From a virus, in UHGV virus genome UHGV-0122704: a DNA stretch of 43,652 bases; one strand, 5' to 3'. Shown piece after piece: positions 1-43,652 of the stretch. The translations under genes were made by a program, and so were the position numbers. The notes beneath the pieces were generated by a model. It was not told where the DNA came from. It saw nothing but the letters and a program-made list of their open reading frames with translations, and searched no databases. The stretch's first letter is position 1; each line of letters opens with the position of its first letter.

Positions 1-686
1 TCCCTATCTATAGGGAGTGCCTAGCTTATGACAACGTACGCTCTGGCTTTAACTGTTCGTACGGTGGTGGCTACGTTTATGACTGCGAGGCTCACGGTAG
101 CCAGAATGGTGTGCGAATCAACGGGGGCCGTGTTAAAGGCGGTCGGTACACGCGCAACTCCAGCTCTCACATCTTCGTCACTAAGGATGTGGCTGAGACA
201 GCGCAGACATCCCTGGAGATTGATGACGTGAGCATGCGCTACGACGGTACCGGAAGAGCTGTGTACTTCCACGGGACTATGGGCATTAACCCTACCATGG
301 TATCTATGTCCAATAATGACATGACCGGTCACGGTGTGTCTTGGGCATTACTGAGTGGTTATACTGTGCAGCCTACGCCTCCGCGCATGTCCAGGAACTT
401 ACTGGACGACACAAGCATTCGCGGAGTGGCAACACTGGTTGCGGGTGAGGCTACGGTCAACGCTCGTGTACGCGGAAACTTTGGCAGCGTAGCTAACTCC
501 TTCAAGTGGGTGTCTGAGGTCAAGTTGACGCGGTTAACCTTTCCTTCTAGTGCTGGGGCCTTGACGGTTACTGGCGTAGCACAGAACCAGGATGTACCTA
601 CACCTAATCCGGACCTAAACAGCTTCGTGATTAGGAGTAGTAACGCAGCGGATGTATCCCAGGTAGCCTGGGAGGTGTATCTCTAA
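1..686 (+). CDS. Tailspike / putative capsule depolymerase, C-terminal part (5'-truncated by window start; probable continuation of 42383..43652)
   Basis: Frame with codons at 3,6,9... is open from base 3 to the TAA at 684..686. It is in phase with the ORF truncated at 43652 if the window ends are joined. Gly/Ser/Thr/Asn/Val-rich sequence typical of beta-helix tailspikes. Confidence 0.6.
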   Translation, partial: PIYRECLAYDNVRSGFNCSYGGGYVYDCEAHGSQNGVRINGGRVKGGRYTRNSSSHIFVTKDVAETAQTSLEIDDVSMRYDGTGRAVYFHGTMGINPTMVSMSNNDMTGHGVSWALLSGYTVQPTPPRMSRNLLDDTSIRGVATLVAGEATVNARVRGNFGSVANSFKWVSEVKLTRLTFPSSAGALTVTGVAQNQDVPTPNPDLNSFVIRSSNAADVSQVAWEVYL

Positions 687-782
687 GTAGCTCCCTGGGG
701 TATCTCTATGGTATCCCGGGGCACTACTTGGGGTGCACGTCTATACCTGGACCTGAAATTTATTAGACTTTAAAATGAGGAT

Positions 783-1244
783 ATGTCTATGAACATCAAA
801 TATGACACAACATCCCCTAGCTGCTTGGTGTGGCTCAAGGGTAGGCGCGCCGGTGCTCCAGCGGGTACCCGCAACACTCGTGGCTACTGGGTGGTACAGG
901 TATCTGGTAGAAAGATACAGGCACACCGCCTCATCTGGGAACTACACAACGGGCCTATTCCAGACGGATATGTGGTGGACCACATCAACCAAAACCCCGG
1001 TGACAACAGATTAGAGAACCTGCGCTTAGCTACGGTTAGCGAAAACAACTGTAACGCACGCAGGTCTAAGCGGGAACATCCTAGGGGTGTATACTACACT
1101 GGCACCTGCTGGCGCGGGGAGTTCTGGAAGGACGGTAAGCGTTACATGAAGAAGCACAGCTCCTACGAAGTTATCTGCAAGTGGGTACTAGAGAAACGTC
1201 AAGAGCAACACAAGGCCTTCACCCCGGGGCAGGTGTATATCTGA
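783..1244 (+). CDS. HNH homing endonuclease (HNH_3-type with AP2-like C-terminal domain)
   Basis: ATG 783 preceded by GAGGA. Motif HRLIWELHNGPIPDGYVVDHINQNPGDNRLENLRLATVSENN is a textbook phage HNH_3 signature; C-terminal GVYYTGTCWRGEFWKDGKRY resembles an AP2 DNA-binding domain. Confidence 0.85.
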   Translation: MSMNIKYDTTSPSCLVWLKGRRAGAPAGTRNTRGYWVVQVSGRKIQAHRLIWELHNGPIPDGYVVDHINQNPGDNRLENLRLATVSENNCNARRSKREHPRGVYYTGTCWRGEFWKDGKRYMKKHSSYEVICKWVLEKRQEQHKAFTPGQVYI

Positions 1245-1605
1245 AACCAAAAATTATTATACTCGCCCTTGAGCCTCCCTCACCCTCAACGACGCCAATT
1301 GCCCCCATAGGGGGTGCCTAGCGCATAAAAGGAGGGGTGGGGTGGGTGCCTAGACGTCTAGACGGCCCTAGGGCGCTCTCTGAGGTGTGGAGCGCCACGG
1401 CAGCTAAGACCGTGGCTATAGCGGAAGCCTCAGAGGGCCTCAGTGGCTCCCTGCGCTGCGCTGGGGCTATCGCTAGTGCTGCCCCACGGCTTGGCCTGTG
1501 CGTGGCACTGAGTGGCTCCTGTGCGCTCTACGGGGCACTAGGGGCTATCCCTGTGCGCTCCCTGTGGGCCGTAGGGGTGCGCTCTGCCTTGCTTATTTTG
1601 CGCGT

Positions 1606-2066: not shown

Positions 2067-2483
2067 GTGGCTAGAACATTTAAGATTGTGGTTGATAAGG
2101 AAGGTTATCCAGTGATTAATGGTGCTGGGCCTGAGTATGTGAATAAGCGAGGTAAGAGAGACTATAAGACTGTGGCGCTGCATAGGGCCGTGGTTATGGA
2201 TGCTCTGGGAATCACTAGCTACGGTTCTGGCTATCACGTACATCACTGTGACAGTAACCGCCTTAACTGTGACTTCAATAACCTGATACTGGTTAGCGCT
2301 GACACTCACCGGGCCATACACTTAGCACAGATTCAGGAAGGGAGATGCTTCACAAAGGATGAGTTATTGGCTAGTCCTGAGTACGATACTAACTGGCGAG
2401 AGTTCGACGTGACTTATGGGGACTACAATAGTTTACTGCACGCAGACCTTTGGGGGTCTGCTTACTCTTTTTGCTCCCAGTGA
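2067..2483 (+). CDS. HNH endonuclease
   Basis: GTG start 8 nt after AAGGAG (2053..2058). Motif YHVHHCDSNRLNCDFNNLILVSADTHRAIH fits an HNH nuclease core. Confidence 0.75.
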   Translation: MARTFKIVVDKEGYPVINGAGPEYVNKRGKRDYKTVALHRAVVMDALGITSYGSGYHVHHCDSNRLNCDFNNLILVSADTHRAIHLAQIQEGRCFTKDELLASPEYDTNWREFDVTYGDYNSLLHADLWGSAYSFCSQ

Positions 2484-10969: not shown

Positions 10970-13377
10970 CAACCAGCATAATGCACCTTGACCTGGAGAC
11001 GGAGAACCATGAATATTACGGCTCTAAAGCAAGCCCATACTGCCCTGACAACTATGTTGTTGAGTCCGCATGGCGTATCGACACGACACAGGCTGACGGT
11101 ACTACCACTGTTGGCGCGACTCAATCGGTGCGCTTCAATTCAAGAGCTGATTTCTTGGCGGGAAACAGTGCAGCAGAAGGCTGCCGGTGGTTTCATATCC
11201 CCGAGGATTGCTGGCTTATTGTTGCGCACAACGCAGCCTATGAGATTTCTTGGTTTCTCACGTACCAGCGGCAGCAGTTTGAGGCCTTCCTCAAGCGCGG
11301 TGGCAGGGTGTTCTGCACAATGCACGGGGAATACATCGCCTCGGACTTTCAGAGCATGTATCCGTCTCTGGACGAGACGGCTCCTAAGTACGGTGGTACG
11401 CACAAAGTAGACGGGGTTAAGATTCTATGGGAGCAGGGTGTGTTAACCTCCCAGATCGACCCGATACTGCTGCATGACTACCTGGTTAACGGGGACATCC
11501 CGAACACGGCCCTGTGCTTCTACGGCCAGTGCGCTACGTTCGCCCAGCGCAATCAGATGCAGTACGTGTGGGAACGTATGGATGCCTTGCTAGCTTGGGC
11601 GTACTGCGAGTGGTTCGGCCTGTTCGTGAATATGCCAATTGCACGCAAGAACCAGGAGGAGCAGGAGCAGCGCATCCGTGAGATTAAGCAGGAACTGCAG
11701 CAGTACATCCCGAAGGACTTGCCGGAGACGCTGGACTTCAATTTCGGGTCGGACTTTCATATGTCTGCACTGGTGTACGGCGGGCCTATAAAGTACCGCA
11801 AGAAGGTCCCCTATGACCCTCCGCAGTACGTCAAGGCCGACTACTATAAGTACGAGGACGAAGATGGTGCGCACACCTATATACCTGTACACGACACGCA
11901 CATGCAAGAACTTCAAACGGAAGGCGGATGGTGGCGTGTAGTGACATATCGTGCGGGTAAGAACAAGGGGCTCCCTAAAGTATTCCGCCTCGATACCGAG
12001 GAAGAGAAACTTAAATGGGAAGACGACCTTTACTTCTGCCCGGGCCTAGTGAACATCCAGGAGCTTCCGGAAGTTATCCGGGAGAAGTACGCAGAGCGCG
12101 GGGAGTTCCGACAGGCGCGCACCCTGCAGGATGGCACCCCTGTGTATAGCACCAGCACTGATGCAATGGAGGCGCTGGCTCGCCAAGGGTTCGAGTTCTG
12201 TAAGTTGGTGAACGAACTGGCGGCGCTGGAGAAGGATACCGGCACTTACTATTTGCGAGAAGTACTGGACGCAGGAGGTAATGTAAAAGAGCGGAAGGGG
12301 ATGCTGCAGTATGTAATCCCGGAGCGTCCCGATGGTTCCGGCATCATTCACCACCGGCTGAATACTTGCGCCACCGTAACCGGGCGCTTGAGTAGCTCTA
12401 ACCCGAACCTGCAGAACCTACCCCGCCCGGATGAGGATGGCGACGGTGTGGCTAAATCCAAGGTGAAGCAGGTGTTCACCAGTAGATTCGGGGACAACGG
12501 ACGTATCACTGAGGTTGACTACTCGGCACTGGAAGTGGTTATGTCCTGTGTACACACGGGTGACAAGAAACTGCTGGGACTGCTGCAGAGTGGTACGGAT
12601 ATGCACTGTTACCGCCTAGCTTTCCGCGAGGGATTACCGTATGAAGAAGTATATGAGCGCTGCCACAACAAGAAGCACGAGCTGCATCCGCTTTGGAAGG
12701 CAATGCGTACAGGTATTAAGGCTCCTAGCTTTGCAGCCCAGTATGGCGCTACGGCTAAGGGGATTGCGTTTGCTACTGGATGTACGGTGGAATTTGCACA
12801 GGCTTTCTTGGACAACGAGGCTGCGCTGTTCCCGCAAACAATTGGCTTCCGCGCTGTTGTCAAGGAAGAGGTAGAACGTACCGGTGCGGAGGGGCGCATG
12901 TACCGGGAGCAGGCTGACGACGGCAGCTACCGAATCTACCGCATTGGGACGTGGACCAGCCCAGCCGGTGCCCGCTACAGTTTCCGTCAGAAAGAGCAGT
13001 GGAAAGAGGTTGTGCCTGGGCAGCGTAAGCAGAAGGTAATGGACTACAAGGAAACAGAGATGGCTAACTACTGGTGCCAGGGGGAAGCATTCTTCCTGAT
13101 GGCGGTAGCCGCCGGTATGGTTCTGCGTGCACTCCTGGCCCGTGACTGGTTCGACAATCAGGTGTGCCTGATTACGAACGTGCACGATGCGTTGTATCTG
13201 GACAGCGCCAACCCGGAGGTTGGACGTGAGGCGAGCCTGCTGGTTAAGCAGTGCATGGAGGATGCACCTAAGCGTATTCACCAGCTCTGGCCTAACTACG
13301 GCATCATTGGTGAGGTCCCGTTCCCAGCAGAGGCTGAGATGGGTACGAGTATGTACAGTAAGGAGAAGGTAGAATGA
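10966..13377 (+). CDS. DNA polymerase (family A, T7 gp5-like)
   Basis: N-terminal 3'-5' exo motif MHLDLETEN; polymerase motifs RLNTCATVTGRLSSSNPNLQNLP, K...FAAQYGA and VHDALYLD. ATG 10966 preferred over the track GTG 10960. Confidence 0.95.
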   Translation: MTTSIMHLDLETENHEYYGSKASPYCPDNYVVESAWRIDTTQADGTTTVGATQSVRFNSRADFLAGNSAAEGCRWFHIPEDCWLIVAHNAAYEISWFLTYQRQQFEAFLKRGGRVFCTMHGEYIASDFQSMYPSLDETAPKYGGTHKVDGVKILWEQGVLTSQIDPILLHDYLVNGDIPNTALCFYGQCATFAQRNQMQYVWERMDALLAWAYCEWFGLFVNMPIARKNQEEQEQRIREIKQELQQYIPKDLPETLDFNFGSDFHMSALVYGGPIKYRKKVPYDPPQYVKADYYKYEDEDGAHTYIPVHDTHMQELQTEGGWWRVVTYRAGKNKGLPKVFRLDTEEEKLKWEDDLYFCPGLVNIQELPEVIREKYAERGEFRQARTLQDGTPVYSTSTDAMEALARQGFEFCKLVNELAALEKDTGTYYLREVLDAGGNVKERKGMLQYVIPERPDGSGIIHHRLNTCATVTGRLSSSNPNLQNLPRPDEDGDGVAKSKVKQVFTSRFGDNGRITEVDYSALEVVMSCVHTGDKKLLGLLQSGTDMHCYRLAFREGLPYEEVYERCHNKKHELHPLWKAMRTGIKAPSFAAQYGATAKGIAFATGCTVEFAQAFLDNEAALFPQTIGFRAVVKEEVERTGAEGRMYREQADDGSYRIYRIGTWTSPAGARYSFRQKEQWKEVVPGQRKQKVMDYKETEMANYWCQGEAFFLMAVAAGMVLRALLARDWFDNQVCLITNVHDALYLDSANPEVGREASLLVKQCMEDAPKRIHQLWPNYGIIGEVPFPAEAEMGTSMYSKEKVE

Positions 13378-20106: not shown

Positions 20107-22575
20107 ATGATTAGCGCCCTGAATACGGTTGTAGTACCAGAGGAAGCACTGGTGAAACGCCAGCTGGAGCTTGAAGAGACCTATAAGATTCGCGGAATCG
20201 AGCGGGCACGTAAGCTGATTACGGACGCATTGCAGAACGGTGGGATTATGAACCTGCCGATGACGCAGCGTATGCTCACCTCGGCATATGAGGTGGCCGC
20301 CGCCGCTATCGATGAGATGCGAAATGTAAAAGCCCCGGGCATTGGCGGTAAGTACCGCCGGTTCCTGCGCTTAGTCCCCTTGGATGTCCTGACCACCCTG
20401 AGCCTATGCACAATGTTTGAGGCATTTAGCGTAGCTCCTGGCGAGTCCGCTAGCCGCCGCCAGACTGCACAGGCGGTAATGTCCGCGCTGGGCCGGAACG
20501 TACAATCGGAACTGCTGGCCCTGCAGTTACGCAACGTGGCTCCGGCGTACATGGACCGTGTGTACGAGTACCTTACGGAGCGTAAGACCAAGTCTCCCAC
20601 GCACATCCTGCGTACGCTGCGGGCCAGTGCTGAGAACGTGCACTATGGGCACGAGCCATGGACCAACTCCCAGAATATCTCAGTAGGTCGGCTGCTATGT
20701 GCCGCGGTGTTTGAGACTGGCCTGTTCCAATGGAAGAACTGTAGTGGGAACCTGAGCATGCTCTACCCGGCTGACGATGTTATGGAGGCCTTCCAGAAAC
20801 TGGTAGAGTCCGCTGATACCGTAACCATGAAGCCGCCTATGCTGGTGCCACCGGTACAGCACACCACTATGTGGGATGGCGGGTACCTTACCCCCATCGA
20901 CAATCGCGGGACCTATCACAACTCGCACATCGACCGCGCGCGACTCCGTGAAGTAGCAGAAGCATTCAAGTCCGCGGACGGCATCAAAAAGGCGCTTAAT
21001 AAGGCGCAGGAAACCCCATACCGTATTAATAAGCGCATACTGGAACTGGTGCAAGAAGCACGGGCCCTGGGTATTGGGGTGGGCATGCCCCGCTCAGTAC
21101 CAGAGCCTAAACCGGAGTGGTACTTGGATGGAGTACCAAAAGAGAACTACACCGAAGAAGAACTGGACCGCTTCGGTGAGTGGAAGACGCGCATGTCCCT
21201 ATGGTACAGCGCAGACCGTAAGCGTGTGTCACAACTACGCAGCCTGTTGACCACGCTGGAAATGGCGGAGGAATTCAAAGATGAGAAAGCCCTGTACTTC
21301 CCGACTTGTGTGGACTGGCGCTACCGCCTGTACTTCAAGTCCTCGCTGCATCCCCAAGGTTCTGATTTGCAGAAAGCCCTTCTTGAATTCGGACGTGGCA
21401 AGCCTCTGGGAGAGCGCGGACTTTTCTGGCTTAAAGTGCACGTCGCCACTTGCTTTGGTTATGACAAAACCCTATTCGAAGACCGTGCAGCTTGGGTTGA
21501 TGCGAACTATGCAGAGATTGAGAGGCTCGCGGATTCTCCTCTTGATGCCCCTGCTTTTTCCTCTGCGGATAGCCCCTGGTGCCTGCTGGCCGCCGCTATC
21601 GACTTGGTTAATGCGGTTCGTTCTGGATGCCCAGAAGAGCATATTAGCCGAATCCCAGTTGCTATGGACGCTACAAACTCAGGTGGACAGCATCTCTCAG
21701 CGCTCCTGAGAGACCCTGTGGGCGGACGCTTGACGAACCTGTACTGGGAGGGTAATGATAAGAAAGCGGACCTGTACATGGACGTGAAGCGCCGTACGGA
21801 CGAGAAGGTGATACTGGACCTGGACAAGGAGGATTTCGTTATCCAGAGCACGTACTGGAGAGAGAACGAAATCACCCGCAGCATGACCAAGCGCCCTAGT
21901 ATGACCTACTTCTACAGCGCCACTGTGCGCAGCTGCAGCGACTACATCTTCGAAGGCGCTTGCGCTGAGGGGTACGAGGGTACTGAGACTAACAGTCTGT
22001 GGAACTTGTCATGCTACCTGGCTCCGCGTATGCGCACTGCTATCGAGGAGGCAAACCCAGCCGCAGCCGCAGTTATGGGGTACTTGCAGAACCTCGCTAG
22101 GCGTGTACCGGCAAGCCAGCATCTGCAGTGGTATACGCCGCTGGGTGGGCTCGTAATGAACCGCTACACGCAGCGTGAAGAAGTGCGCGTACGTATTGAC
22201 TGCATGAACCTATCAGCGGTACTGGTACACAACCGGGACTTCAAAACTTGCAACAAGCGCAAGGCAGCCTCCGGGATTGCCCCGAACTTTGTGCATAGCC
22301 TGGACAGTACGCACTTGATGATGGTGCTCTGCGCTGCGGAGGGTCTGGATATTGTGCCTATTCACGACTCGCTGGCTACTCACGCAGCTGACGTTGACGC
22401 TATGCATAGGCACATCCGTGAGCAGTTTGTGCGCCTGTATGAAGAGAATGACCTGCTTGGCGACATTACTCGCGCAGCAGCAGCAGCCGGGGCAGACTTG
22501 ACGGACCTGGACATGCCGGAAGTGGGCACTTTGGACATCCGGCAAGTGCTAGAATCCCCGTTCTTCTTCTGCTAA
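20107..22575 (+). CDS. Single-subunit DNA-dependent RNA polymerase (T7-like)
   Basis: Motif A VAMDATNSGGQHLSALLRD, motif B RSMTKRPSMTYFYSAT and motif C IHDSLATH correspond to the T7 RNAP catalytic motifs; RBS AAGGAGA. Confidence 0.95.
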   Translation: MISALNTVVVPEEALVKRQLELEETYKIRGIERARKLITDALQNGGIMNLPMTQRMLTSAYEVAAAAIDEMRNVKAPGIGGKYRRFLRLVPLDVLTTLSLCTMFEAFSVAPGESASRRQTAQAVMSALGRNVQSELLALQLRNVAPAYMDRVYEYLTERKTKSPTHILRTLRASAENVHYGHEPWTNSQNISVGRLLCAAVFETGLFQWKNCSGNLSMLYPADDVMEAFQKLVESADTVTMKPPMLVPPVQHTTMWDGGYLTPIDNRGTYHNSHIDRARLREVAEAFKSADGIKKALNKAQETPYRINKRILELVQEARALGIGVGMPRSVPEPKPEWYLDGVPKENYTEEELDRFGEWKTRMSLWYSADRKRVSQLRSLLTTLEMAEEFKDEKALYFPTCVDWRYRLYFKSSLHPQGSDLQKALLEFGRGKPLGERGLFWLKVHVATCFGYDKTLFEDRAAWVDANYAEIERLADSPLDAPAFSSADSPWCLLAAAIDLVNAVRSGCPEEHISRIPVAMDATNSGGQHLSALLRDPVGGRLTNLYWEGNDKKADLYMDVKRRTDEKVILDLDKEDFVIQSTYWRENEITRSMTKRPSMTYFYSATVRSCSDYIFEGACAEGYEGTETNSLWNLSCYLAPRMRTAIEEANPAAAAVMGYLQNLARRVPASQHLQWYTPLGGLVMNRYTQREEVRVRIDCMNLSAVLVHNRDFKTCNKRKAASGIAPNFVHSLDSTHLMMVLCAAEGLDIVPIHDSLATHAADVDAMHRHIREQFVRLYEENDLLGDITRAAAAAGADLTDLDMPEVGTLDIRQVLESPFFFC

Positions 22576-37446: not shown

Positions 37447-38403
37447 ATGGCATACAGCTGGCAAGAACAAATCAAGCCAGCTGGTACCCAGGATATCCAG
37501 TGCGATATTGAATATTTGGACAAGTCCTATATTCATGTATACCTAGACGGTGTGGAAACCACTGGGTACACCTGGACCAGCTCTACTAATATCAGGCTTA
37601 ATTCGGCCTTAGCGGCAAGCACTACTGTGCTACTAATCCGTAAGACAGAGCGAGAGTATCTGTACATTGAGTTCGCCAGTGGTTCTCCGTTCATTGAGGT
37701 AAACGTAGACTCCCAAAACACGCAGTTCCTGCACCTTGCGCAGGAACTAGTGGAGGGCCGGGCTATACCCGGATTCTATGGCGCTATCAGCATGAACGGG
37801 TACCGGATAACCAACTTAGCCAACCCAATCAGTGCCCAAGATGCCGCCACTAAGGCTTATGTAGATGCCGCCGATGCCTTACTAGGACAGCGCATTGACG
37901 CAGAGCATTCGGGGTGGGTATCCGCTGTACAGGCCGAAGCCGTTACACGGAAGGCAGCAGATGACGCGCTGAGTGCCCGTACCTCCGCCTTGGAGAACAC
38001 CTTTATAAGCGGTGTAGAGACGGTAAGCTACCCGTGGAGCACGGTCCTGGCCACTGATACGGACGAAGTAACTCCAGGCTTAGCCTTCACTAAGGCTGTA
38101 GTAGAGGTTAACGGGGTTGGGCAGATTCGTGGCTACAGTTTCGATATTGTAGATAATACCATACTGTTTGCAGAGACCTTACCTGCAGGCACTATTGTAG
38201 CCGCTCGGCTGGGGGTTGATGTAACTGCGGGGGACGGTTTTGCTACGCAAGCATCCCTAGATTACTTAGCCGACTCTTTGGGAGATTTGGCGTATCTGGA
38301 CAAGGCTGCAGCTGTATCCAACGCAACCGGCACCGGGGATGTAGTGGCTAAATTTAACGCACTGCTGGCAGCGCTACGCACCAGTGGGGTGCTGTCTACA
38401 TGA
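37447..38403 (+). CDS. Tail fibre / adaptor protein with T7 gp17-like N-terminal domain
   Basis: MNGYRITNLANPISAQDAATKAYVD parallels T7 gp17 GRRIVNLANAVDDRDAVPFGQL. At 318 aa it is short, consistent with an anchor for a second receptor-binding protein. Confidence 0.8.
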   Translation: MAYSWQEQIKPAGTQDIQCDIEYLDKSYIHVYLDGVETTGYTWTSSTNIRLNSALAASTTVLLIRKTEREYLYIEFASGSPFIEVNVDSQNTQFLHLAQELVEGRAIPGFYGAISMNGYRITNLANPISAQDAATKAYVDAADALLGQRIDAEHSGWVSAVQAEAVTRKAADDALSARTSALENTFISGVETVSYPWSTVLATDTDEVTPGLAFTKAVVEVNGVGQIRGYSFDIVDNTILFAETLPAGTIVAARLGVDVTAGDGFATQASLDYLADSLGDLAYLDKAAAVSNATGTGDVVAKFNALLAALRTSGVLST

Positions 38404-38415
38404 TAGGAGAAGAGC

Positions 38416-38718
38416 ATGGCAGGGGCAGCTAAACGCAGTCGCCTCTCGGAGCTGCACCGTATGTTCACCGAGGCCTTGATTGAAGAAATCAAGCAGTCTA
38501 AGGAAGATGAGGTGCCGCTCCCCGCAGCAGATAAATCGGTCATTGCTAAGTTCTTGAAGGATAACGACATCACCGCGGACGCAGATTCCGAGGAGATGCA
38601 GGACCTTCGTGACGAATTCGATGACGAGCTAGCGGCGCGCAGAGAGGCGCGTAAGCAAGAGATTCTAAATAAAGTTGGTGGTTCAGACTCTGAGGACTTA
38701 CTAGAAGGAATTGTCTAA
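38416..38718 (+). CDS. Terminase small subunit (T7 gp18-like)
   Basis: 100-aa acidic protein directly upstream of the large terminase; RBS AGGAGAAG. Confidence 0.7.
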   Translation: MAGAAKRSRLSELHRMFTEALIEEIKQSKEDEVPLPAADKSVIAKFLKDNDITADADSEEMQDLRDEFDDELAARREARKQEILNKVGGSDSEDLLEGIV

Positions 38719-40574
38719 TGGTATCGGTGAAGACTGCGCGAAGACTGCGCATGCTCAACCAGAAACTTACTGGTTATAGTGCGAATCCGCGCAGTATTCC
38801 CAAAGAGGAGCGCGAGGATATCGCGATGATGATGGCCGCGGCGCTAAGCGACTTCCGGGAATTCGCGTACATCGGTATGCGGTTCCTGGGCTTTACGCTC
38901 ACGGACATGCAGGCCGACATTGCAGAGTACATGCAGAAGGGCCCCCGGAAGCGCATGGTGGCCGCGCAGCGTGGTGAGGCTAAGTCTACACTAGCTGCAC
39001 TGTACGCCGTCTGGAGGCTCATCCAGGACCAATCCTGCCGTATCCTGATTGTGTCCGGTGCAGAGAAGCAGGCGTCCGACGTAGCGAACTTAATCATTCG
39101 TATGATTGAGACATGGCCGCTGCTGTGCTATTTGAAGGCTGATCCTACTCGTGGGGACCGTACTTCATTCGAAGGTTATGACGTACACTGTGACCTCAAG
39201 CCGCTGGAGAAATCCGCCAGCGTAGCCTGTGTAGGTATCACTGCATCCCTGCAGGGTAAGCGCGCGGACCTGCTGATTCCGGATGATATCGAGACCACCA
39301 AGAATGGTTTAACGCAAACCCAGCGTGAGCAGCTGCTGATGATTTCTAAAGACTTCGCGGCTATCTGTACGCACGGGGATACGCTGTACCTGGGTACACC
39401 ACAGACCAAGGACAGTATCTATAAAACCCTGCCGGGACGTGGCTTCGAGGTCCGCGTGTGGCCCGGGCGCATTCCGTCTGTTGAAATGGAAGAGCGATAT
39501 GGAAGTACACTTGCTCCTTATATCCTGGAGCTTATTGAGCGCGGCTATAAACGCACCGGCTTCGGAGTCGACGGAACGCTAGGCGAGAGCACGGACACCG
39601 GGCGCTATGACGAGGATGCGCTGATTGAGAAGGAGCTGGACTTTGGTCCGGAAGGCTTCCAGCTGCAGTACATGCTCGACACCACCCTGTCCGACCAAAT
39701 GCGTACGCGCATCAAGCTATCGGATATGCTGGTTTACTCTGGCAGCCAGGATTCCTCCCCGGAGACGTTCTCCTACATTGCGGACCGCAGGTACCTGTAC
39801 CAGCACGAGCATGAGGGGATTATGGGTCAGCAGATGTACTTCCCGGCATTCTACGGGGACATGCACCTGCCGTACCAGCATAAGGTACTGGTGGTGGACC
39901 CGGCTGGTTGTGGTGGGGACGAAGTGTCCTACGCTGCTGGAGGTGCTGCGAACTCGTACATTCACCTATTCTCCGTAGGCGGATTCCAAGGAGGTATCAG
40001 CGAAGAGAACATTGATAAACTGATTGACCTGTGTGTAGAGTTGGACATCCCGGATATGGTGGTGGAGAGCAATATGGGGCACGGTACCGTGTCTATGCTT
40101 ATCCTGAACCGATTACGTGAGCGGCGTCTCGCCGGTATCGGTGTAAGGGACCTGAATAACTCCACGCAGAAAGAGCGTCGTATCATCGACACAATCAGCC
40201 CAGTTACTCGTCGCCATCGCCTGATAGTGCATGAGCGTGCTATTCACGACGATATCAGTACCTGTATGGCATATTCCCGCGATAGGCGTTGGCTGTACTC
40301 TGCGTTCGCGCAGTTGTCCGGTATCACGTACGACCGCGGTAGCCTTGCGAAGGATGACCGGGCAGACGCAATCGCCATGATGGTGGCTACGCTGAATGGG
40401 CATCTGGTGGAAGATGAGAAAGTGGTGGCTGAGCGTGAGTCTGAGAAGATGGCTCGGGCCTTCATTGAGAACCCACTGGATTGGGCACAGAGCAAAGTGT
40501 CTAAGGGCCTTCGTGGTGTAGCTGCTCGGCTACATAACCGGGGCAGAGGTAAACAACATAGAGGAAGAAGATAA
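38718..40574 (+). CDS. Terminase large subunit (T7 gp19-like)
   Basis: 618 aa at the gp19 position; call is by synteny and size. Confidence 0.8.
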   Translation: MVSVKTARRLRMLNQKLTGYSANPRSIPKEEREDIAMMMAAALSDFREFAYIGMRFLGFTLTDMQADIAEYMQKGPRKRMVAAQRGEAKSTLAALYAVWRLIQDQSCRILIVSGAEKQASDVANLIIRMIETWPLLCYLKADPTRGDRTSFEGYDVHCDLKPLEKSASVACVGITASLQGKRADLLIPDDIETTKNGLTQTQREQLLMISKDFAAICTHGDTLYLGTPQTKDSIYKTLPGRGFEVRVWPGRIPSVEMEERYGSTLAPYILELIERGYKRTGFGVDGTLGESTDTGRYDEDALIEKELDFGPEGFQLQYMLDTTLSDQMRTRIKLSDMLVYSGSQDSSPETFSYIADRRYLYQHEHEGIMGQQMYFPAFYGDMHLPYQHKVLVVDPAGCGGDEVSYAAGGAANSYIHLFSVGGFQGGISEENIDKLIDLCVELDIPDMVVESNMGHGTVSMLILNRLRERRLAGIGVRDLNNSTQKERRIIDTISPVTRRHRLIVHERAIHDDISTCMAYSRDRRWLYSAFAQLSGITYDRGSLAKDDRADAIAMMVATLNGHLVEDEKVVAERESEKMARAFIENPLDWAQSKVSKGLRGVAARLHNRGRGKQHRGRR

Positions 40575-40948
40575 TGGCATCAATCATCGCAGCTAAAACT
40601 GCGGACGTCCAGTACGCCATTGTAGGCACGTGCCAGAACCTGGAGAAGCAGGTGCAGCCGGACTACAACGTAGGCTTCGTAGGTACGACTGCCCTGACTA
40701 AGCTGAACGCGTTCTTCACGTACATGCAGTCCCAGGGCTATACGGCTACCCGTGCCGGTACAGCCTTTAAGGATGACGGTACGCTGCAGGCGCGCCTGTT
40801 CAGCATGCTGTCACAGCTCTCTAAGACCGGCTACGTTGCCCTTACAGGTACAGGTATGCCGCTCGGTGAGGGCTCCGGTACAGCGTTTGATGATTCGTTC
40901 ACTGCACTGCAGAGTGCATTCGTAGCCGCCACTGATGCGGCAGAATAA
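40574..40948 (+). CDS. Hypothetical protein (124 aa)
   Basis: Start overlaps the terminase stop; soluble Thr/Ala/Gly-rich protein. Confidence 0.55.
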   Translation: MASIIAAKTADVQYAIVGTCQNLEKQVQPDYNVGFVGTTALTKLNAFFTYMQSQGYTATRAGTAFKDDGTLQARLFSMLSQLSKTGYVALTGTGMPLGEGSGTAFDDSFTALQSAFVAATDAAE

Positions 40949-40959
40949 GGAGAGTACAC

Positions 40960-41142
40960 ATGGCAATTGCAAAAGCAACCTCAGCGCAACAGCAGGAGCT
41001 GTTGCGTCAGCTGAACATTCTCGGTAAGGACCTGTATGCTATCCTTACGCAGCCGCAGAACGTGGCCCAGACTGGTGCTGCCTTCGATACCAAGATTGCT
41101 GCGCTTGAAGCCGCGGTGGCCGCAGTGGAGGCTGCTAGCTAA
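40960..41142 (+). CDS. Hypothetical protein (60 aa)
   Basis: RBS AAGGAGAG; Ala/Gln-rich, helical. Confidence 0.5.
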   Translation: MAIAKATSAQQQELLRQLNILGKDLYAILTQPQNVAQTGAAFDTKIAALEAAVAAVEAAS

Positions 41143-41546
41143 TGCGTAAACTGGTCGCTGGGTTGCTGCTCGCGGTTACTCTGACTGGTTGCTCGGCGAC
41201 CTCTGCACTCACCGGCTTAGTTGGTTCTAAGCCGGATGTATCTGCTCAGGTTGGTGCCGAGAACACCAAACAAACCGTTGGCTTGAATAACAAGGTGGAC
41301 TCCAGCACCACCAACAAAACTGATGTACAGGATTCTAACGTAGGCACTTTGGACACGTCCAGTAAGAAGCAGGTGCAAACTATTAGCACCGGGACAATCC
41401 AGGCAGAACGCCTGCAGGTGGTTAACAATGATAGTTACAGTCTTATCCTCGCCGGATTAGCTGGGGCCAGTATTCCTCTGGTCTTCCTAGTGGTCATTCT
41501 GGTGATTCGTAAGCTGTTCAGGAAGAAGGGGCAGCAGGATGATTAA
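41142..41546 (+). CDS. Putative unimolecular spanin (N-terminal lipoprotein signal + C-terminal TMD)
   Basis: N-terminus MRKLVAGLLLAVTLTGCS has a signal peptide with lipobox LTGC; C-terminus LILAGLAGASIPLVFLVVILVIRKLFRKK is a TM helix with a basic tail. Sits in the lysis cassette. Confidence 0.7.
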   Translation: MRKLVAGLLLAVTLTGCSATSALTGLVGSKPDVSAQVGAENTKQTVGLNNKVDSSTTNKTDVQDSNVGTLDTSSKKQVQTISTGTIQAERLQVVNNDSYSLILAGLAGASIPLVFLVVILVIRKLFRKKGQQDD

Positions 41547-41790
41547 GGTGGGAGACATGGTTGGAGCAGACATCGCTACCCGGGCAGGTGCAGCAGTTAC
41601 CGGCGCTACGGTATCAGGAGGTTGGTTGGCAGAGTTAATGAGCTGGAACTGGAGCACTATCAGCTTCATCACTGCGACGGTGTGCGCAGTGTTAACCCTG
41701 GCGTGGAATGCGTATTACAAGCGACGTACATTCAAGCTCCTAGAGGAGCAGGCACGTAAGGGGACTATTAAATATGAGTTTAAGGACTAA
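41539..41790 (+). CDS. Holin (two predicted TMDs; pinholin-like)
   Basis: 83 aa with two hydrophobic segments (AAVTGATVSGGWLAELM and STISFITATVCAVLTLAWNAYY) and a charged C-terminus; immediately upstream of the endolysin. Alternative start ATG 41557. Confidence 0.7.
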   Translation: MIKVGDMVGADIATRAGAAVTGATVSGGWLAELMSWNWSTISFITATVCAVLTLAWNAYYKRRTFKLLEEQARKGTIKYEFKD

Positions 41791-42382
41791 GGTTGTGGCG
41801 GCCCTTACGGGGGCCACCATGCTCGGCGGCGCTATCACTGGAGTGATTAAGCATAACGAAGGTCTAAGCCTCCCCGCCTATAGGGACAGTGCCGGTGTCC
41901 CTACCATCTGCTATGGCGAGACAAAGGGCGTCAAGATGGGCCAGAGAGCCACGCTGAGCGATTGTCAGAAGCAACTGATACAATCAGCAGGGGAACACGC
42001 AAAAGCCCTTGACGGGCTTCCTATGCAGCTCTCTGATGTAGCTCTGGTTGGGTCTATAGACTTTATTTATAACGTAGGAGTAGCTGGCTTCAACGGCAGC
42101 TCCGTGAAGCGGCATCTCAAGAACCTGGATTACGCAGCAGCTGGAAAGGCCGTACTGGACTGGCGCTATATTAGCAAGTACCAGCAGAAATCCCCGGGCA
42201 TCGGTTGGGTGTACAAGGGTAGCAACCGCTGGACCTTCGACTGTTCTCAGTATATTAACGGGCAGCGCAATAAAGTGTGCTGGGGCCTATGGGGGCGCAG
42301 ACAGTGGCAGAGCAAGGCCATTGGGAATCAGTATAAGAATGTAAATGCTGCGGTGGCAGCTCTTACTAAGACCGGAGGATAA
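41774..42382 (+). CDS. Endolysin, GH24 (T4-lysozyme-like) muramidase with N-terminal SAR domain
   Basis: Gly/Ala-rich weakly hydrophobic N-terminus VVAALTGATMLGGAITGVI followed by catalytic E-x8-D-x5-T (NEGLSLPAYRDSAGVPTICYGET). Confidence 0.85.
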   Translation: MSLRTKVVAALTGATMLGGAITGVIKHNEGLSLPAYRDSAGVPTICYGETKGVKMGQRATLSDCQKQLIQSAGEHAKALDGLPMQLSDVALVGSIDFIYNVGVAGFNGSSVKRHLKNLDYAAAGKAVLDWRYISKYQQKSPGIGWVYKGSNRWTFDCSQYINGQRNKVCWGLWGRRQWQSKAIGNQYKNVNAAVAALTKTGG

Positions 42383-43652
42383 ATGGCGTTAATTAGATTA
42401 GTAGCTCCAGAGCGGGTATTCTCCGACTTGGCGAGCATGGTAGCATATCCAAACTTTCAGGTGCAGGACAAGATTATCCTACTGGGCAGTGGTGGTGGGG
42501 ATTTCACCTTTACTACTGCTGCGTCGGTAGTAGATAACGGGACTGTGTTTGCTGTGCCCGGTGGGTATCTGCTCCGTAAATTCACGGGCCCGGCATACAG
42601 CTCCTGGTTCAGCAATTGGGCAGGCATAGTCACGTTCATGAGCGCGCCTAATAGGCACCTGGTTGTGGACACAGTCCTGCAGGCCACGAGTGTGCTCAAC
42701 ATCAAAAGCAACTCTACGCTAGAGTTTACCGATACCGGAAGAATCCTACCGGACGCTGCGGTTGCGCGTCAGGTGCTTAATATTATCGGCGCGGCACCAT
42801 CGGCGTTCGTACCGTTAGCGGCGGACGCTGCGGCGGGCAGCAAAGTCATTACGGTGGCTGCTGGTGCTTTGTCTGTGGTAAAAGGTACGTACTTGTATCT
42901 TCGCTCTAACAAGCTATGCGACGGTGGGCCTAACACCTACGGGGTAAAGATTTCCCAGATTAGGAAAGTGGTGGGTGTTAGCACCTCCGGTGGCGTCACC
43001 AGCATTCGGCTGGATAAAGCGCTGCACTATAACTACTACCTGTCTGATGCTGCGGAAGTAGGTATCCCGACAATGGTGGAGAACGTAACCTTAGTATCCC
43101 CGTACATCAACGAGTTCGGCTACGACGATTTGAACCGGTTCTTTACTATCGGTATCTCTGCCAACTTTGCCGCGGACTTGCACATCCAGGACGGGGTTAT
43201 TATTGGCAACAAACGCCCAGGGGCTTCTGATATAGAAGGGCGTAGCGCTATCAAGTTCAATAACTGCGTAGACAGCACCGTTAAGGGTACGTACTTCTAC
43301 AACATCGGATGGTACGGGGTAGAGGTGCTCGGCTGCTCAGAGGACACGGAAGTACACGATATCCACGCTATGGACGTACGCCACGCAATCTCTTTGAACT
43401 GGCAGAGCACTGCAGACGGGGACAAGTGGGGAGAGCCTATCGAGTTCTTAGGCGTTAACTGCGAAGCCTACAGCACAACCCATGCTGGATTTGATACTCA
43501 CGACATTGGTAAGCGTGTGAAGTTCGTTCGCTGCGTTTCGTACGACAGTGCTGACGATGGGTTCCAAGCGCGCACTAACGGGGTAGAGTACTTGAACTGT
43601 CGAGCTTACCGTGCAGCTCTGGACGGGTTCGCCTCCAACACCGGTGTAGCCT
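42383..43652 (+). CDS. Tailspike / putative capsule depolymerase, N-terminal part (3'-truncated by window end; probably continues at 1..686)
   Basis: ATG 42383 directly after the endolysin stop; no stop codon before the window end. N-terminus lacks a T7 gp17-like adaptor domain. Confidence 0.75.
   Translation, partial: MALIRLVAPERVFSDLASMVAYPNFQVQDKIILLGSGGGDFTFTTAASVVDNGTVFAVPGGYLLRKFTGPAYSSWFSNWAGIVTFMSAPNRHLVVDTVLQATSVLNIKSNSTLEFTDTGRILPDAAVARQVLNIIGAAPSAFVPLAADAAAGSKVITVAAGALSVVKGTYLYLRSNKLCDGGPNTYGVKISQIRKVVGVSTSGGVTSIRLDKALHYNYYLSDAAEVGIPTMVENVTLVSPYINEFGYDDLNRFFTIGISANFAADLHIQDGVIIGNKRPGASDIEGRSAIKFNNCVDSTVKGTYFYNIGWYGVEVLGCSEDTEVHDIHAMDVRHAISLNWQSTADGDKWGEPIEFLGVNCEAYSTTHAGFDTHDIGKRVKFVRCVSYDSADDGFQARTNGVEYLNCRAYRAALDGFASNTGVA

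What the first reader, a model, noticed from the sequence alone, without database searches (positions are those of the whole stretch)
37447..43652. Two-component receptor-binding system: short gp17-like fibre plus a terminally encoded tailspike
The 318-aa fibre (37447..38403) keeps the T7 gp17 N-terminal adaptor motif but is too short for a full fibre. The large beta-helix-like protein after the lysis cassette lacks that adaptor. This is the layout described for KP34-like Klebsiella phages, where the tailspike is a capsule depolymerase docked onto the anchor fibre, and it predicts capsule-type-specific host range.
Basis: partly seen in the sequence, partly recalled or inferred. Interest (0 to 1): 0.5.

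Follow-up and report, generated by a model that had tools for sequence, protein, structure and literature searches.

The report
Known K1-capsule phage spike and anchor

Summary
ORF 37447..38403 encodes a 318-aa protein whose only significant domain is the T7 tail-fibre N-terminal anchor (Pfam PF03906, aa 13-141). It is 90% identical to 'tail fiber gp9' of PDB 23sh and homologous to the Shigella phage HRP29 gp44 tailspike adapter.

The window is a circularly permuted whole phage genome. The ORF that runs off the end (42383..43652) joins in frame to 1..686, giving a 651-aa spike. That spike is 96.8% identical to the K1 lyase of phage NTUH-K2044-K1-1 (PDB 7W1C). It has all three K1-lyase Pfam domains, and Tyr311, His373, Arg397 and Arg472 are intact. 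It has no T7 anchor and starts with MALIRLV, the MALxxLV docking heptapeptide of KP34-type second receptor-binding proteins.

Relatives with 72-97% identical fibres carry unrelated spikes that share only that heptapeptide. PDB 23sh holds fibre and spike chains of a K2-specific relative together.

Fifty-one deposited phages have a spike at least 95% identical. It is already known and of low interest. The seven genes between fibre and spike are not part of the system.

The parts
37447..38403 (+). Anchor fibre, the truncated first receptor-binding protein (tailspike adapter), 318 aa
   Evidence: ORF. Pfam PF03906 at aa 13-141, E=6e-20. 90% identical to PDB 23sh_r 'tail fiber gp9'; HRP29 gp44 adapter 8es4_G E=3e-74. 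91.8% identical to NTUH-K2044-K1-1 ORF28. PHROG 2710 tail fiber, E=5e-115.
37483..37869 (+). T7 gp17-type N-terminal anchor domain of the fibre (aa 13-141), which attaches the complex to the tail
   Evidence: Pfam PF03906 match. Nearly invariant among ten Drulisvirus fibres. Matches T7 gp17 N-terminus 7boz. Its role as sole virion attachment element comes from PMC13352976.
37870..38016 (+). Probably helical stalk (aa 142-190). It contains an 11-aa indel (AEHSGWVSAVQ, 37900..37932) that separates 318-aa from 307-aa fibre variants
   Evidence: Alignment of ten fibres; gap against PDB 23sh gp9. The helical character is my inference from the sequence and from weak profile hits to coiled-coil adhesins.
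38017..38268 (+). Conserved C-terminal module of the fibre (aa ~191-274), the presumed branching/docking site for the spike
   Evidence: Conserved in both short and long first RBPs (invariant W197, P210, F214, G223, V224, Q226, A242, G248, G256). The same module recurs inside other branched RBPs (9k4a residues 193-277, 9d80, 9d83, 6w4q). Corresponds to Latka's 'T4gp10-like fragment', aa 186-242 of KP34 gp49. hhalign against T4 gp10 was not significant.
42383..43652 (+). K1-specific capsule lyase tailspike, 5' part (codons 1-423 plus the first base of codon 424)
   Evidence: Translation and in-frame join. PDB 7w1c_A E=0, 1426 bits over 1-651. Pfam K1-lyase_N (aa 1-71), K1-lyase_Rider (142-230) and Beta_helix. 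Tyr311 at 43313..43315, His373 at 43499..43501, Arg397 at 43571..43573.
1..686 (+). K1 lyase tailspike, 3' part (last two bases of codon 424 to the stop codon). Includes the second carbohydrate site Arg472 (144..146) and the K1-lyase_C domain (417..677)
   Evidence: In-frame continuation to a stop codon ending at 686. Pfam K1-lyase_C E=2e-16. The gene is contiguous in more than 50 relatives. Coordinates.
42383..42403 (+). N-terminal docking heptapeptide MALIRLV of the spike
   Evidence: Matches the MALxxLV motif of KP34virus second RBPs (PMC6872550). It is the only stretch shared with the otherwise unrelated spikes of AttikonH1N2, AltoGao, 6995, KP34 and QL.

Best explanation
The window is a complete, circularly permuted genome of a KP34-like (Drulisvirus) Klebsiella podophage. 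Its receptor-binding apparatus has two proteins.

1. The 318-aa fibre is a trimeric adapter. Its T7 gp17-type N-terminal domain plugs into the tail at the adapter/nozzle junction. Its conserved C-terminal module offers a docking site.

2. The 651-aa spike is encoded after the lysis cassette, directly behind the endolysin. It attaches to the fibre through its extreme N-terminus (MALIRLV plus the small K1-lyase_N trimerisation domain). It presents a trimeric right-handed beta-helix that binds the K1 capsular polysaccharide and cleaves it by beta-elimination, using Tyr311, His373 and Arg397. A second, non-catalytic binding site around Arg472 contributes to adsorption.

Degrading the capsule lets the virion reach the outer membrane, so host range is restricted to K1 strains.

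Shown here: the identity of both proteins, their domain content, conservation of the functional residues, the gene layout, and the fact that one anchor pairs with different spikes in relatives. Inferred from relatives: physical docking, enzymatic activity and K1 host range.
For: Spike:
- 96.8% identical over 651 of 651 residues to NTUH-K2044-K1-1 ORF34, and full-length match to PDB 7W1C.
- K1-lyase_N, Rider and C domains all far above the Pfam cut-offs.
- Tyr311, His373, Arg397, Arg472 and also Lys291, Glu314, Arg333, His334 and Arg378 are conserved. Their roles are given in PMC8822698.
- 17 of the 21 differences from ORF34 recur in other K1-phage spikes, and the 4 private ones are conservative.
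- 51 phage records have a spike at least 95% identical, several with K1 hosts stated (KP_NC6 on NTUH-K2044, KpV2883 on capsular type K1).

Fibre:
- PF03906 only.
- 90% identical to 23sh gp9 and homologous to the HRP29 gp44 adapter, the PhiM1 gp47 fibre and a 'tail adaptor protein' 7y22.

Docking:
- MALxxLV is the only segment shared by spikes paired with near-identical fibres.
- PDB 23sh contains both fibre gp9 and spike gp1 chains of a K2 relative.
- HRP29 gp44/gp52 is handled as a complex (PMC11654681).
- An R472A mutant phage adsorbs less well and makes smaller plaques, so the lyase acts on the virion.
Against: No experiment exists on this phage. The 'T4gp10-like' nature of the fibre's docking module could not be reproduced by profile comparison (hhalign probability 0.3%). 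The functional docking experiments in PMC13352976 were done on KP32/K11 scaffolds, not on a Drulisvirus fibre. I could not inspect the fibre-spike interface in 23sh, and no paper for it is held in the library. The 70-aa N-terminal domain of the spike is not a generic docking module, since it travels with the K1 lyase (63 records against 569 for the fibre). How much of it contacts the fibre is therefore unknown.
Confidence: 0.93

Rival explanations
1. The spike is a soluble depolymerase released at lysis together with the lysis proteins. It is not a virion component docked on the fibre.
For: The gene follows the endolysin directly (stop codon then ATG) and appears to be co-transcribed with the lysis cassette. 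No promoter- or terminator-like site lies between them. Free enzyme is known to cause halos, and un-incorporated RBP2 gave a halo in PMC13352976.
Against: PDB 23sh lists tail spike gp1 together with tail fiber gp9 for a close relative. The N-terminal heptapeptide is conserved across otherwise unrelated spikes. A point mutation in the lyase lowers phage adsorption (PMC8822698). Without the spike the phage would have no receptor-binding protein able to deal with a capsule.
Confidence: 0.02
2. The short fibre is itself the primary receptor-binding protein, for example for LPS or an outer-membrane protein, and the spike only clears the capsule.
For: The fibre has about 45 residues beyond the conserved module (aa 275-318) of unknown role, with a weak Pfam head-fibre hit (E=6e-4, below cut-off). 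T7 gp17, from which its N-terminus derives, is a true receptor-binding fibre.
Against: The fibre has no distal tip domain. It is 72-97% identical among phages with K1, K2, K63 and other specificities, so it does not track host range. Homologues are described as adapters (HRP29 gp44, 7y22 'tail adaptor protein', PP90 'tail spike attachment protein'). In the distantly related phiKMV-like phage Ar-KM, the authors consider the short tail fibre (also numbered gp44) too short and wrongly oriented to reach the receptor.
Confidence: 0.04
3. The spike binds directly to the tail tube or nozzle rather than to the fibre, and the fibre is an independent appendage.
For: Docking on the fibre was not observed for this phage. 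The T4gp10-like docking domain was not confirmed by hhalign.
Against: The spike has no PF03906 anchor. In KP32, RBP2 is lost from virions when the branching domain of RBP1 is absent. The K1 lyase also occurs fused behind an anchor plus the same C-terminal module in a 922-aa protein (9k4a), which places that module immediately upstream of the enzyme in the fused form.
Confidence: 0.03

Closest known systems
Klebsiella phage NTUH-K2044-K1-1 ORF28 (fibre) and ORF34 (K1 lyase, PDB 7W1C/7W1D/7W1E)
   Same: Same gene order from fibre to spike, and the same HNH gene after the spike. The spike has the same length, is 96.8% identical and keeps all functional residues. The fibre has the same length (318 aa) and is 91.8% identical.
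   Different: There are 21 substitutions in the spike, 4 of them private among the eight spikes that could be compared position by position (V68T, S137A, L523M, S615G). There are 26 substitutions in the fibre, whose nucleotide identity is only 87% against 94.5% for the spike, which suggests mosaic ancestry.
Klebsiella phage KP34 gp49 / gp57 (type of 'group A KP34viruses', Latka 2019; gp57 PDB 8BKE)
   Same: Same architecture: a short PF03906 anchor fibre (87.7% identical), seven intervening genes in the same order, and a second RBP after the endolysin starting with MALxxLV.
   Different: KP34 gp57 is a K63-specific enzyme unrelated in sequence beyond the heptapeptide (23% over 152 aa). The KP34 fibre lacks the 11-aa stalk insert (307 aa). 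KP34 has no HNH gene between the spike and the terminal repeat.
Drulisvirus tail structure PDB 23sh (tail fiber gp9 + tail spike gp1), and phage QL
   Same: The fibre is 90% (23sh) and 97.5% (QL) identical to the window's. The spike is encoded at the same position.
   Different: Their spike is a 577-aa K2-type tailspike (the same as the K2-2 TSP, PDB 8IQ5), not the K1 lyase.
Shigella phage HRP29 gp44 tailspike adapter with gp52 tailspike (PDB 8ES4)
   Same: The adapter is homologous over fibre residues 1-272 (E=3e-74). The principle is the same: a T7-type anchor carrying a separately encoded spike. The two capsid decoration proteins are also shared.
   Different: The host is different and the spike targets O-antigen. 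The adapter is 260 aa long.
Klebsiella phage KpV2883 (group B) and the 922-aa K1 depolymerase of PDB 9K4A
   Same: KpV2883 has the same K1 lyase, 95.9% identical, as its second RBP. In 9K4A residues 323-921 are homologous to the lyase, E=2e-94.
   Different: In KpV2883 the first RBP is a full 816-aa protein with its own distal part, giving a true dual-RBP phage. In 9K4A the anchor, the branching module and the K1 lyase are fused in one chain.
E. coli phage K1-5 / SP6-type adaptor protein
   Same: Distant homology to fibre residues 38-259 (28% identity, E=2e-11). The concept is the same: an adaptor that holds spikes through very short N-terminal peptides (cited in PMC6872550).
   Different: The K1-5 adaptor holds two different spikes. 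It belongs to a different subfamily (Molineuxvirinae).

Membership tests
Group A KP34virus (Drulisvirus) anchor-branch RBP system (Latka et al. 2019) | First RBP of about 300 aa with a T7 gp17 N-terminal anchor (pfam03906, about aa 14-142) | tested here: met
   318 aa; PF03906 at aa 13-141, E=6.3e-20.
Group A KP34virus (Drulisvirus) anchor-branch RBP system (Latka et al. 2019) | First RBP has no enzymatic or distal receptor-binding domain | tested here: met
   No other Pfam domain above its cut-off. The whole length aligns with adapter proteins 23sh gp9 and 8es4 gp44.
Group A KP34virus (Drulisvirus) anchor-branch RBP system (Latka et al. 2019) | Fragment of a T4 gp10-like branching domain in the C-terminal part of the first RBP | tested here: inconclusive
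   hhalign of a 14-sequence fibre profile against T4 gp10 gave probability 0.3%, E=0.19. The profile is shallow (Neff 2.7) and the template is a single sequence. The module at aa 191-274 is nevertheless conserved and recurs in other branched RBPs.
Group A KP34virus (Drulisvirus) anchor-branch RBP system (Latka et al. 2019) | Second RBP gene separated from the first by 5-8 genes (terminases, hypotheticals, lysis genes) and placed after the endolysin | tested here: met
   Seven genes lie in between: terS, terL, two decoration proteins, u-spanin, holin, endolysin. The spike ATG directly follows the endolysin stop codon.
Group A KP34virus (Drulisvirus) anchor-branch RBP system (Latka et al. 2019) | Second RBP starts with the conserved heptapeptide MALxxLV | tested here: met
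   MALIRLV. The same motif is found in NTUH-K2044-K1-1, KpV2883, KP34, QL and AttikonH1N2, and as MALxxIV in AltoGao and 6995.
Group A KP34virus (Drulisvirus) anchor-branch RBP system (Latka et al. 2019) | Second RBP physically docks on the first RBP in the virion | not testable with these tools
   Indirect only. PDB 23sh holds both chains for a relative, and there is genetic evidence in KP32.
K1 capsule-specific polysaccharide lyase (NTUH-K2044-K1-1 ORF34, PDB 7W1C) | Full-length collinear homology with N-terminal, beta-helix plus 'rider', and C-terminal beta-sandwich domains | tested here: met
   651 of 651 residues aligned at 96.8% identity. PF24145 E=1e-38, PF24149 E=6e-38, PF24146 E=2e-16, PF13229 E=3e-5.
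K1 capsule-specific polysaccharide lyase (NTUH-K2044-K1-1 ORF34, PDB 7W1C) | Catalytic residues Tyr311, His373, Arg397 and second-site Arg472 | tested here: met
   All are present at the same positions. Their roles are taken from PMC8822698.
K1 capsule-specific polysaccharide lyase (NTUH-K2044-K1-1 ORF34, PDB 7W1C) | Beta-elimination activity on K1 capsular polysaccharide, and K1-restricted host range | not testable with these tools
   Inferred from 97% identity and from relatives with stated K1 hosts.
Full-length T7 gp17-type tail fibre | Long shaft and C-terminal receptor-binding tip domain | tested here: not met
   318 aa against 553 aa. T7 gp17 (7boz) aligns only with profile positions 11-187. 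The protein is an adapter, not a fibre in the T7 sense.

The most novel reading that the evidence does not exclude
The particular pairing found here may behave differently from the reference phage. The fibre is closest to that of the K2 phage QL (97.5%), and the K1 lyase allele carries four private substitutions. One possibility is a shifted tolerance for K1 capsule modifications such as O-acetylation or pyruvylation. Another is that the unexplained C-terminal 45 residues of the fibre bind a secondary receptor, which would make this a genuine two-receptor system rather than an anchor plus enzyme.
Probability: 0.04. Interest if true: 0.35.

Novelty: already known. Interest (0 to 1): 0.08.

Why it matters
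K1 Klebsiella pneumoniae is the main cause of pyogenic liver abscess. K1 lyases of this type are being developed as anti-virulence agents and as tools for making defined oligosaccharides for vaccines (PMC8822698). For this window, the practical result is a confident annotation. The phage can be predicted to be K1-specific. Its spike gene has to be read across the assembly junction. Its fibre should be annotated as a tailspike adapter. Nothing here opens a new question, because the architecture, the enzyme structure, the catalytic mechanism and the modular exchange of spikes on a constant anchor are all published.

Tried and rejected
(1) I asked whether the spike's whole 70-aa N-terminal domain is the generic docking module. 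This was rejected. tblastn finds it in only 63 phage records, essentially the K1-lyase carriers plus 12 distant ones, against 569 records for the fibre. Only the heptapeptide is shared with other spikes.

(2) I tried to confirm the 'T4gp10-like' branching domain by hhalign against T4 gp10. The result was not significant, so the feature is recorded as inconclusive rather than met.

(3) I searched the literature for the papers behind PDB 23sh/23sf. None is held in the library. 8ES4 was identified as HRP29 and 8VBX as Pectobacterium PhiM1.

(4) Sigma-70 promoter and intrinsic terminator scans around the fibre and spike gave counts close to those of shuffled sequence, and nothing between endolysin and spike. 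This is uninformative, because the phage encodes its own RNA polymerase (822-aa ORF at 20107..22575; assignment from the annotation of relatives).

A crystal structure at 97% identity already shows the right-handed beta-helix.

(6) I did not run the large protein-database searches. The phage collection and the PDB already gave near-identical characterised relatives.

(7) BUCT631 was dropped from the position-wise substitution analysis, because a 1-aa indel shifts its register.
Full report
**What the window is.** The 43,652-bp window has uniform composition (about 54% G+C, positive GC skew throughout), and all long ORFs lie on the + strand. It is 90-94% identical over 85-98% of its length to deposited Klebsiella phages of the genus Drulisvirus (KP34-like Autographiviridae). 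It is a complete genome opened at an arbitrary point. The annotated direct terminal repeats of relatives (AttikonH1N2, KP34, NKA196) map to about 1277..1584 of the window, so the physical ends lie there and not at the window ends.

**The observation.** The 318-aa ORF is exactly where stated, at 37447..38403. Its only significant Pfam domain is the T7 tail-fibre N-terminal domain (PF03906, aa 13-141, E=6e-20).

A long ORF begins at 42383, immediately after the endolysin stop codon (GGAGGA-TAA-ATG), and runs off the window end. Codon 424 is split across the junction, and the frame continues from base 1 to a stop codon ending at 686. This gives a 651-aa protein. The join is not an artefact of my reading, because the same 1953-nt gene is contiguous in more than 50 deposited phages. 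This protein has no PF03906 hit. Instead it carries K1-lyase_N, K1-lyase_Rider, Beta_helix and K1-lyase_C.

Seven genes inside the stated range are not part of the system, and the last 228 codons of the spike lie at 1..686.

**The spike.** It aligns end to end with the crystallised K1 lyase of phage NTUH-K2044-K1-1 (PDB 7W1C; 1426 bits). It is 96.8% identical to the GenBank ORF34 protein, with the same length.

Tu et al. (PMC8822698) describe this enzyme in detail:
- It has a 14-rung right-handed beta-helix (Ala71-Asp559) with a protruding 'rider' domain, and a C-terminal beta-sandwich.
- It cleaves K1 capsule by beta-elimination using Tyr311, His373 and Arg397.
- A second, inter-subunit carbohydrate site around Arg472 matters for depolymerisation, adsorption and plaque size.

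All of these residues are conserved in the window's protein, as are Lys291, Glu314, Arg333, His334 and Arg378. Of the 21 differences from ORF34, 17 recur in other K1-phage spikes, including that of KP_NC6, which was isolated on NTUH-K2044. The four private changes (V68T, S137A, L523M, S615G) are conservative and lie away from the functional residues. The prediction of K1 specificity is therefore as strong as sequence alone can make it.

**The fibre.** It is 90% identical to 'tail fiber gp9' of PDB 23sh. It is clearly homologous to gp44 of Shigella phage HRP29 (8ES4, E=3e-74), which the literature calls a tailspike adapter and which is handled as a gp44/gp52 complex. It is also homologous to the Pectobacterium PhiM1 fibre gp47 and to a 'tail adaptor protein' (7Y22). 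T7 gp17 itself matches only the N-terminal part.

An alignment of ten Drulisvirus fibres shows four regions:
- an almost invariant anchor (aa 1-141);
- a stalk with an 11-residue indel that separates 318-aa from 307-aa variants;
- a conserved module at about aa 191-274, which is retained even in the long (816- and 946-aa) first RBPs of KpV2883 and 6995;
- a 45-residue tail.

The conserved module corresponds to what Latka et al. called a fragment of a T4gp10-like branching domain. I could not reproduce that similarity by profile comparison with T4 gp10 (probability 0.3%). However, the same module recurs inside other branched receptor-binding proteins in the PDB, including a 922-aa K1-specific depolymerase (9K4A). 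In that protein it sits between the anchor and a homologue of this very lyase.

**How the two parts are connected.** Latka et al. 2019 (PMC6872550) defined 'group A KP34viruses'. These have a ~300-aa anchor fibre without an enzymatic domain, and a second RBP encoded five to eight genes downstream whose N-terminus carries the heptapeptide MALxxLV. The window fits every testable criterion, since its spike starts MALIRLV.

I tested the modularity directly. The fibre family occurs in 569 phage records, 248 of them at 60% identity or more. The spike's 70-aa N-terminal domain occurs in only 63 records, so that domain travels with the K1 lyase and is not the generic docking element. I then compared phages whose fibres are 72-97% identical to the window's (QL, AttikonH1N2, KP34, AltoGao and others). 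Their spikes are unrelated to the K1 lyase except for the first seven residues. The closest fibre of all (QL, 97.5%) is paired with a K2-type spike, and that spike together with a 90%-identical fibre is found in the single PDB entry 23sh.

Experimental work on the related KP32/K11/KP34 systems shows that the anchor is the sole attachment to the virion. [quoted passage not shown] Docking in this phage is thus well supported by analogy, but it was not demonstrated here.

**The genes in between.** They are:
- small terminase, 38416..38718;
- large terminase, 38718..40574;
- two small proteins, 40574..40948 and 40960..41142;
- a unimolecular spanin with a lipobox, 41142..41546;
- holin, 41539..41790;
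- endolysin, 41774..42382.

Most database records call the two small proteins hypothetical. They match solved capsid decoration proteins: 23sf gp6 and gp5, and HRP29 gp47 and gp48.

Downstream of the spike lies an HNH endonuclease gene (783..1244). It is shared with NTUH-K2044-K1-1 but absent from KP34, where the flanking sequences abut. After it comes the collapsed terminal repeat. 'Terminally encoded' is therefore correct for the physical genome, because the spike is the last structural gene before the right end. The spike's position at the window boundary is only a matter of how the assembly was linearised.

**Verdict.** They can be sharpened: the spike is a K1-specific lyase, and the fibre is a tailspike adapter. 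The system is a textbook example of a published architecture. A crystal structure exists for a 97%-identical enzyme, a solved tail assembly exists for a relative, and 51 deposited phages carry the same spike. It is already known and of low interest. The one open detail is structural: exactly how a seven-residue peptide docks into the fibre's C-terminal module, and whether that module is truly T4 gp10-like. That question concerns the whole genus and is not raised by this window in particular.

Noticed in passing
window 40574..40948 and 40960..41142: Two small ORFs (124 and 60 aa) are annotated 'hypothetical' in most relatives, and one record calls the first an 'exonuclease'. They match solved capsid decoration proteins: PDB 23sf gp6 (E=1e-73) and gp5 (E=2e-29), and HRP29 gp47/gp48 in 8ELD. 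They could be annotated as head decoration proteins.
   Followed up: partly
window 783..1244 (and 2067..2483): An HNH endonuclease gene sits between the spike stop codon and the terminal repeat. KP34 lacks it: 39 nt at 731..769 are identical to KP34, and the KP34 match then resumes around 1226, so it looks like a mobile insertion shared with NTUH-K2044-K1-1 ORF35. A second HNH ORF lies at 2067..2483 in the early region.
   Followed up: partly
window about 1277..1584: The annotated direct terminal repeats of AttikonH1N2, KP34 and NKA196 map here at 80-88% identity. The physical genome ends are therefore in this region, and the repeat is collapsed to one copy in this assembly.
   Followed up: partly
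window 37900..37932 (fibre aa 152-162): An 11-residue segment (AEHSGWVSAVQ) in the fibre stalk is present in the 318-aa variants (window, NTUH-K2044-K1-1, QL, AttikonH1N2, and the long fibres of 6995 and KpV2883). It is absent from the 307-aa variants (KP34, NKA196, AltoGao, 23sh gp9). It may be a discrete length polymorphism of the stalk.
   Followed up: no
L005 13811..13996 (phage 6995) compared with window 38269..38400: The 61-aa truncated second RBP of phage 6995 consists of the MALVEIV heptapeptide plus a tail ending ...LAALLASLRSSGAIAE. That tail resembles the C-terminus of the anchor fibre (...FNALLAALRTSGVLST). The fibre tail also gives a weak Pfam head-fibre hit, below its cut-off. 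It may be a shared short trimerisation or recombination motif.
   Followed up: no
L003 about 11904..11957 (phage NKA196): The annotated start of the NKA196 tailspike (MEAYAVSS...) is probably mis-called. An in-frame ATG 18 codons upstream gives MALQKIT..., which resembles the docking heptapeptide.
   Followed up: partly
GenBank OQ503491.1 ('Acinetobacter phage vB_AbaA_LLY'): This record is labelled as an Acinetobacter baumannii phage. It nevertheless has a Drulisvirus backbone 93% identical to the window and a 96.6%-identical Klebsiella K1 lyase. The host label looks doubtful.
   Followed up: no
PDB 7W1C sequence compared with GenBank ORF34 (L001 11064..13019): The crystallised K1 lyase sequence differs from the GenBank ORF34 translation at a few positions. 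For example, the PDB chain has Thr213 and 'SAAAG', where both GenBank and the window have Ala213 and 'SADDG'. These are probably construct or strain differences and do not involve catalytic residues.
   Followed up: no
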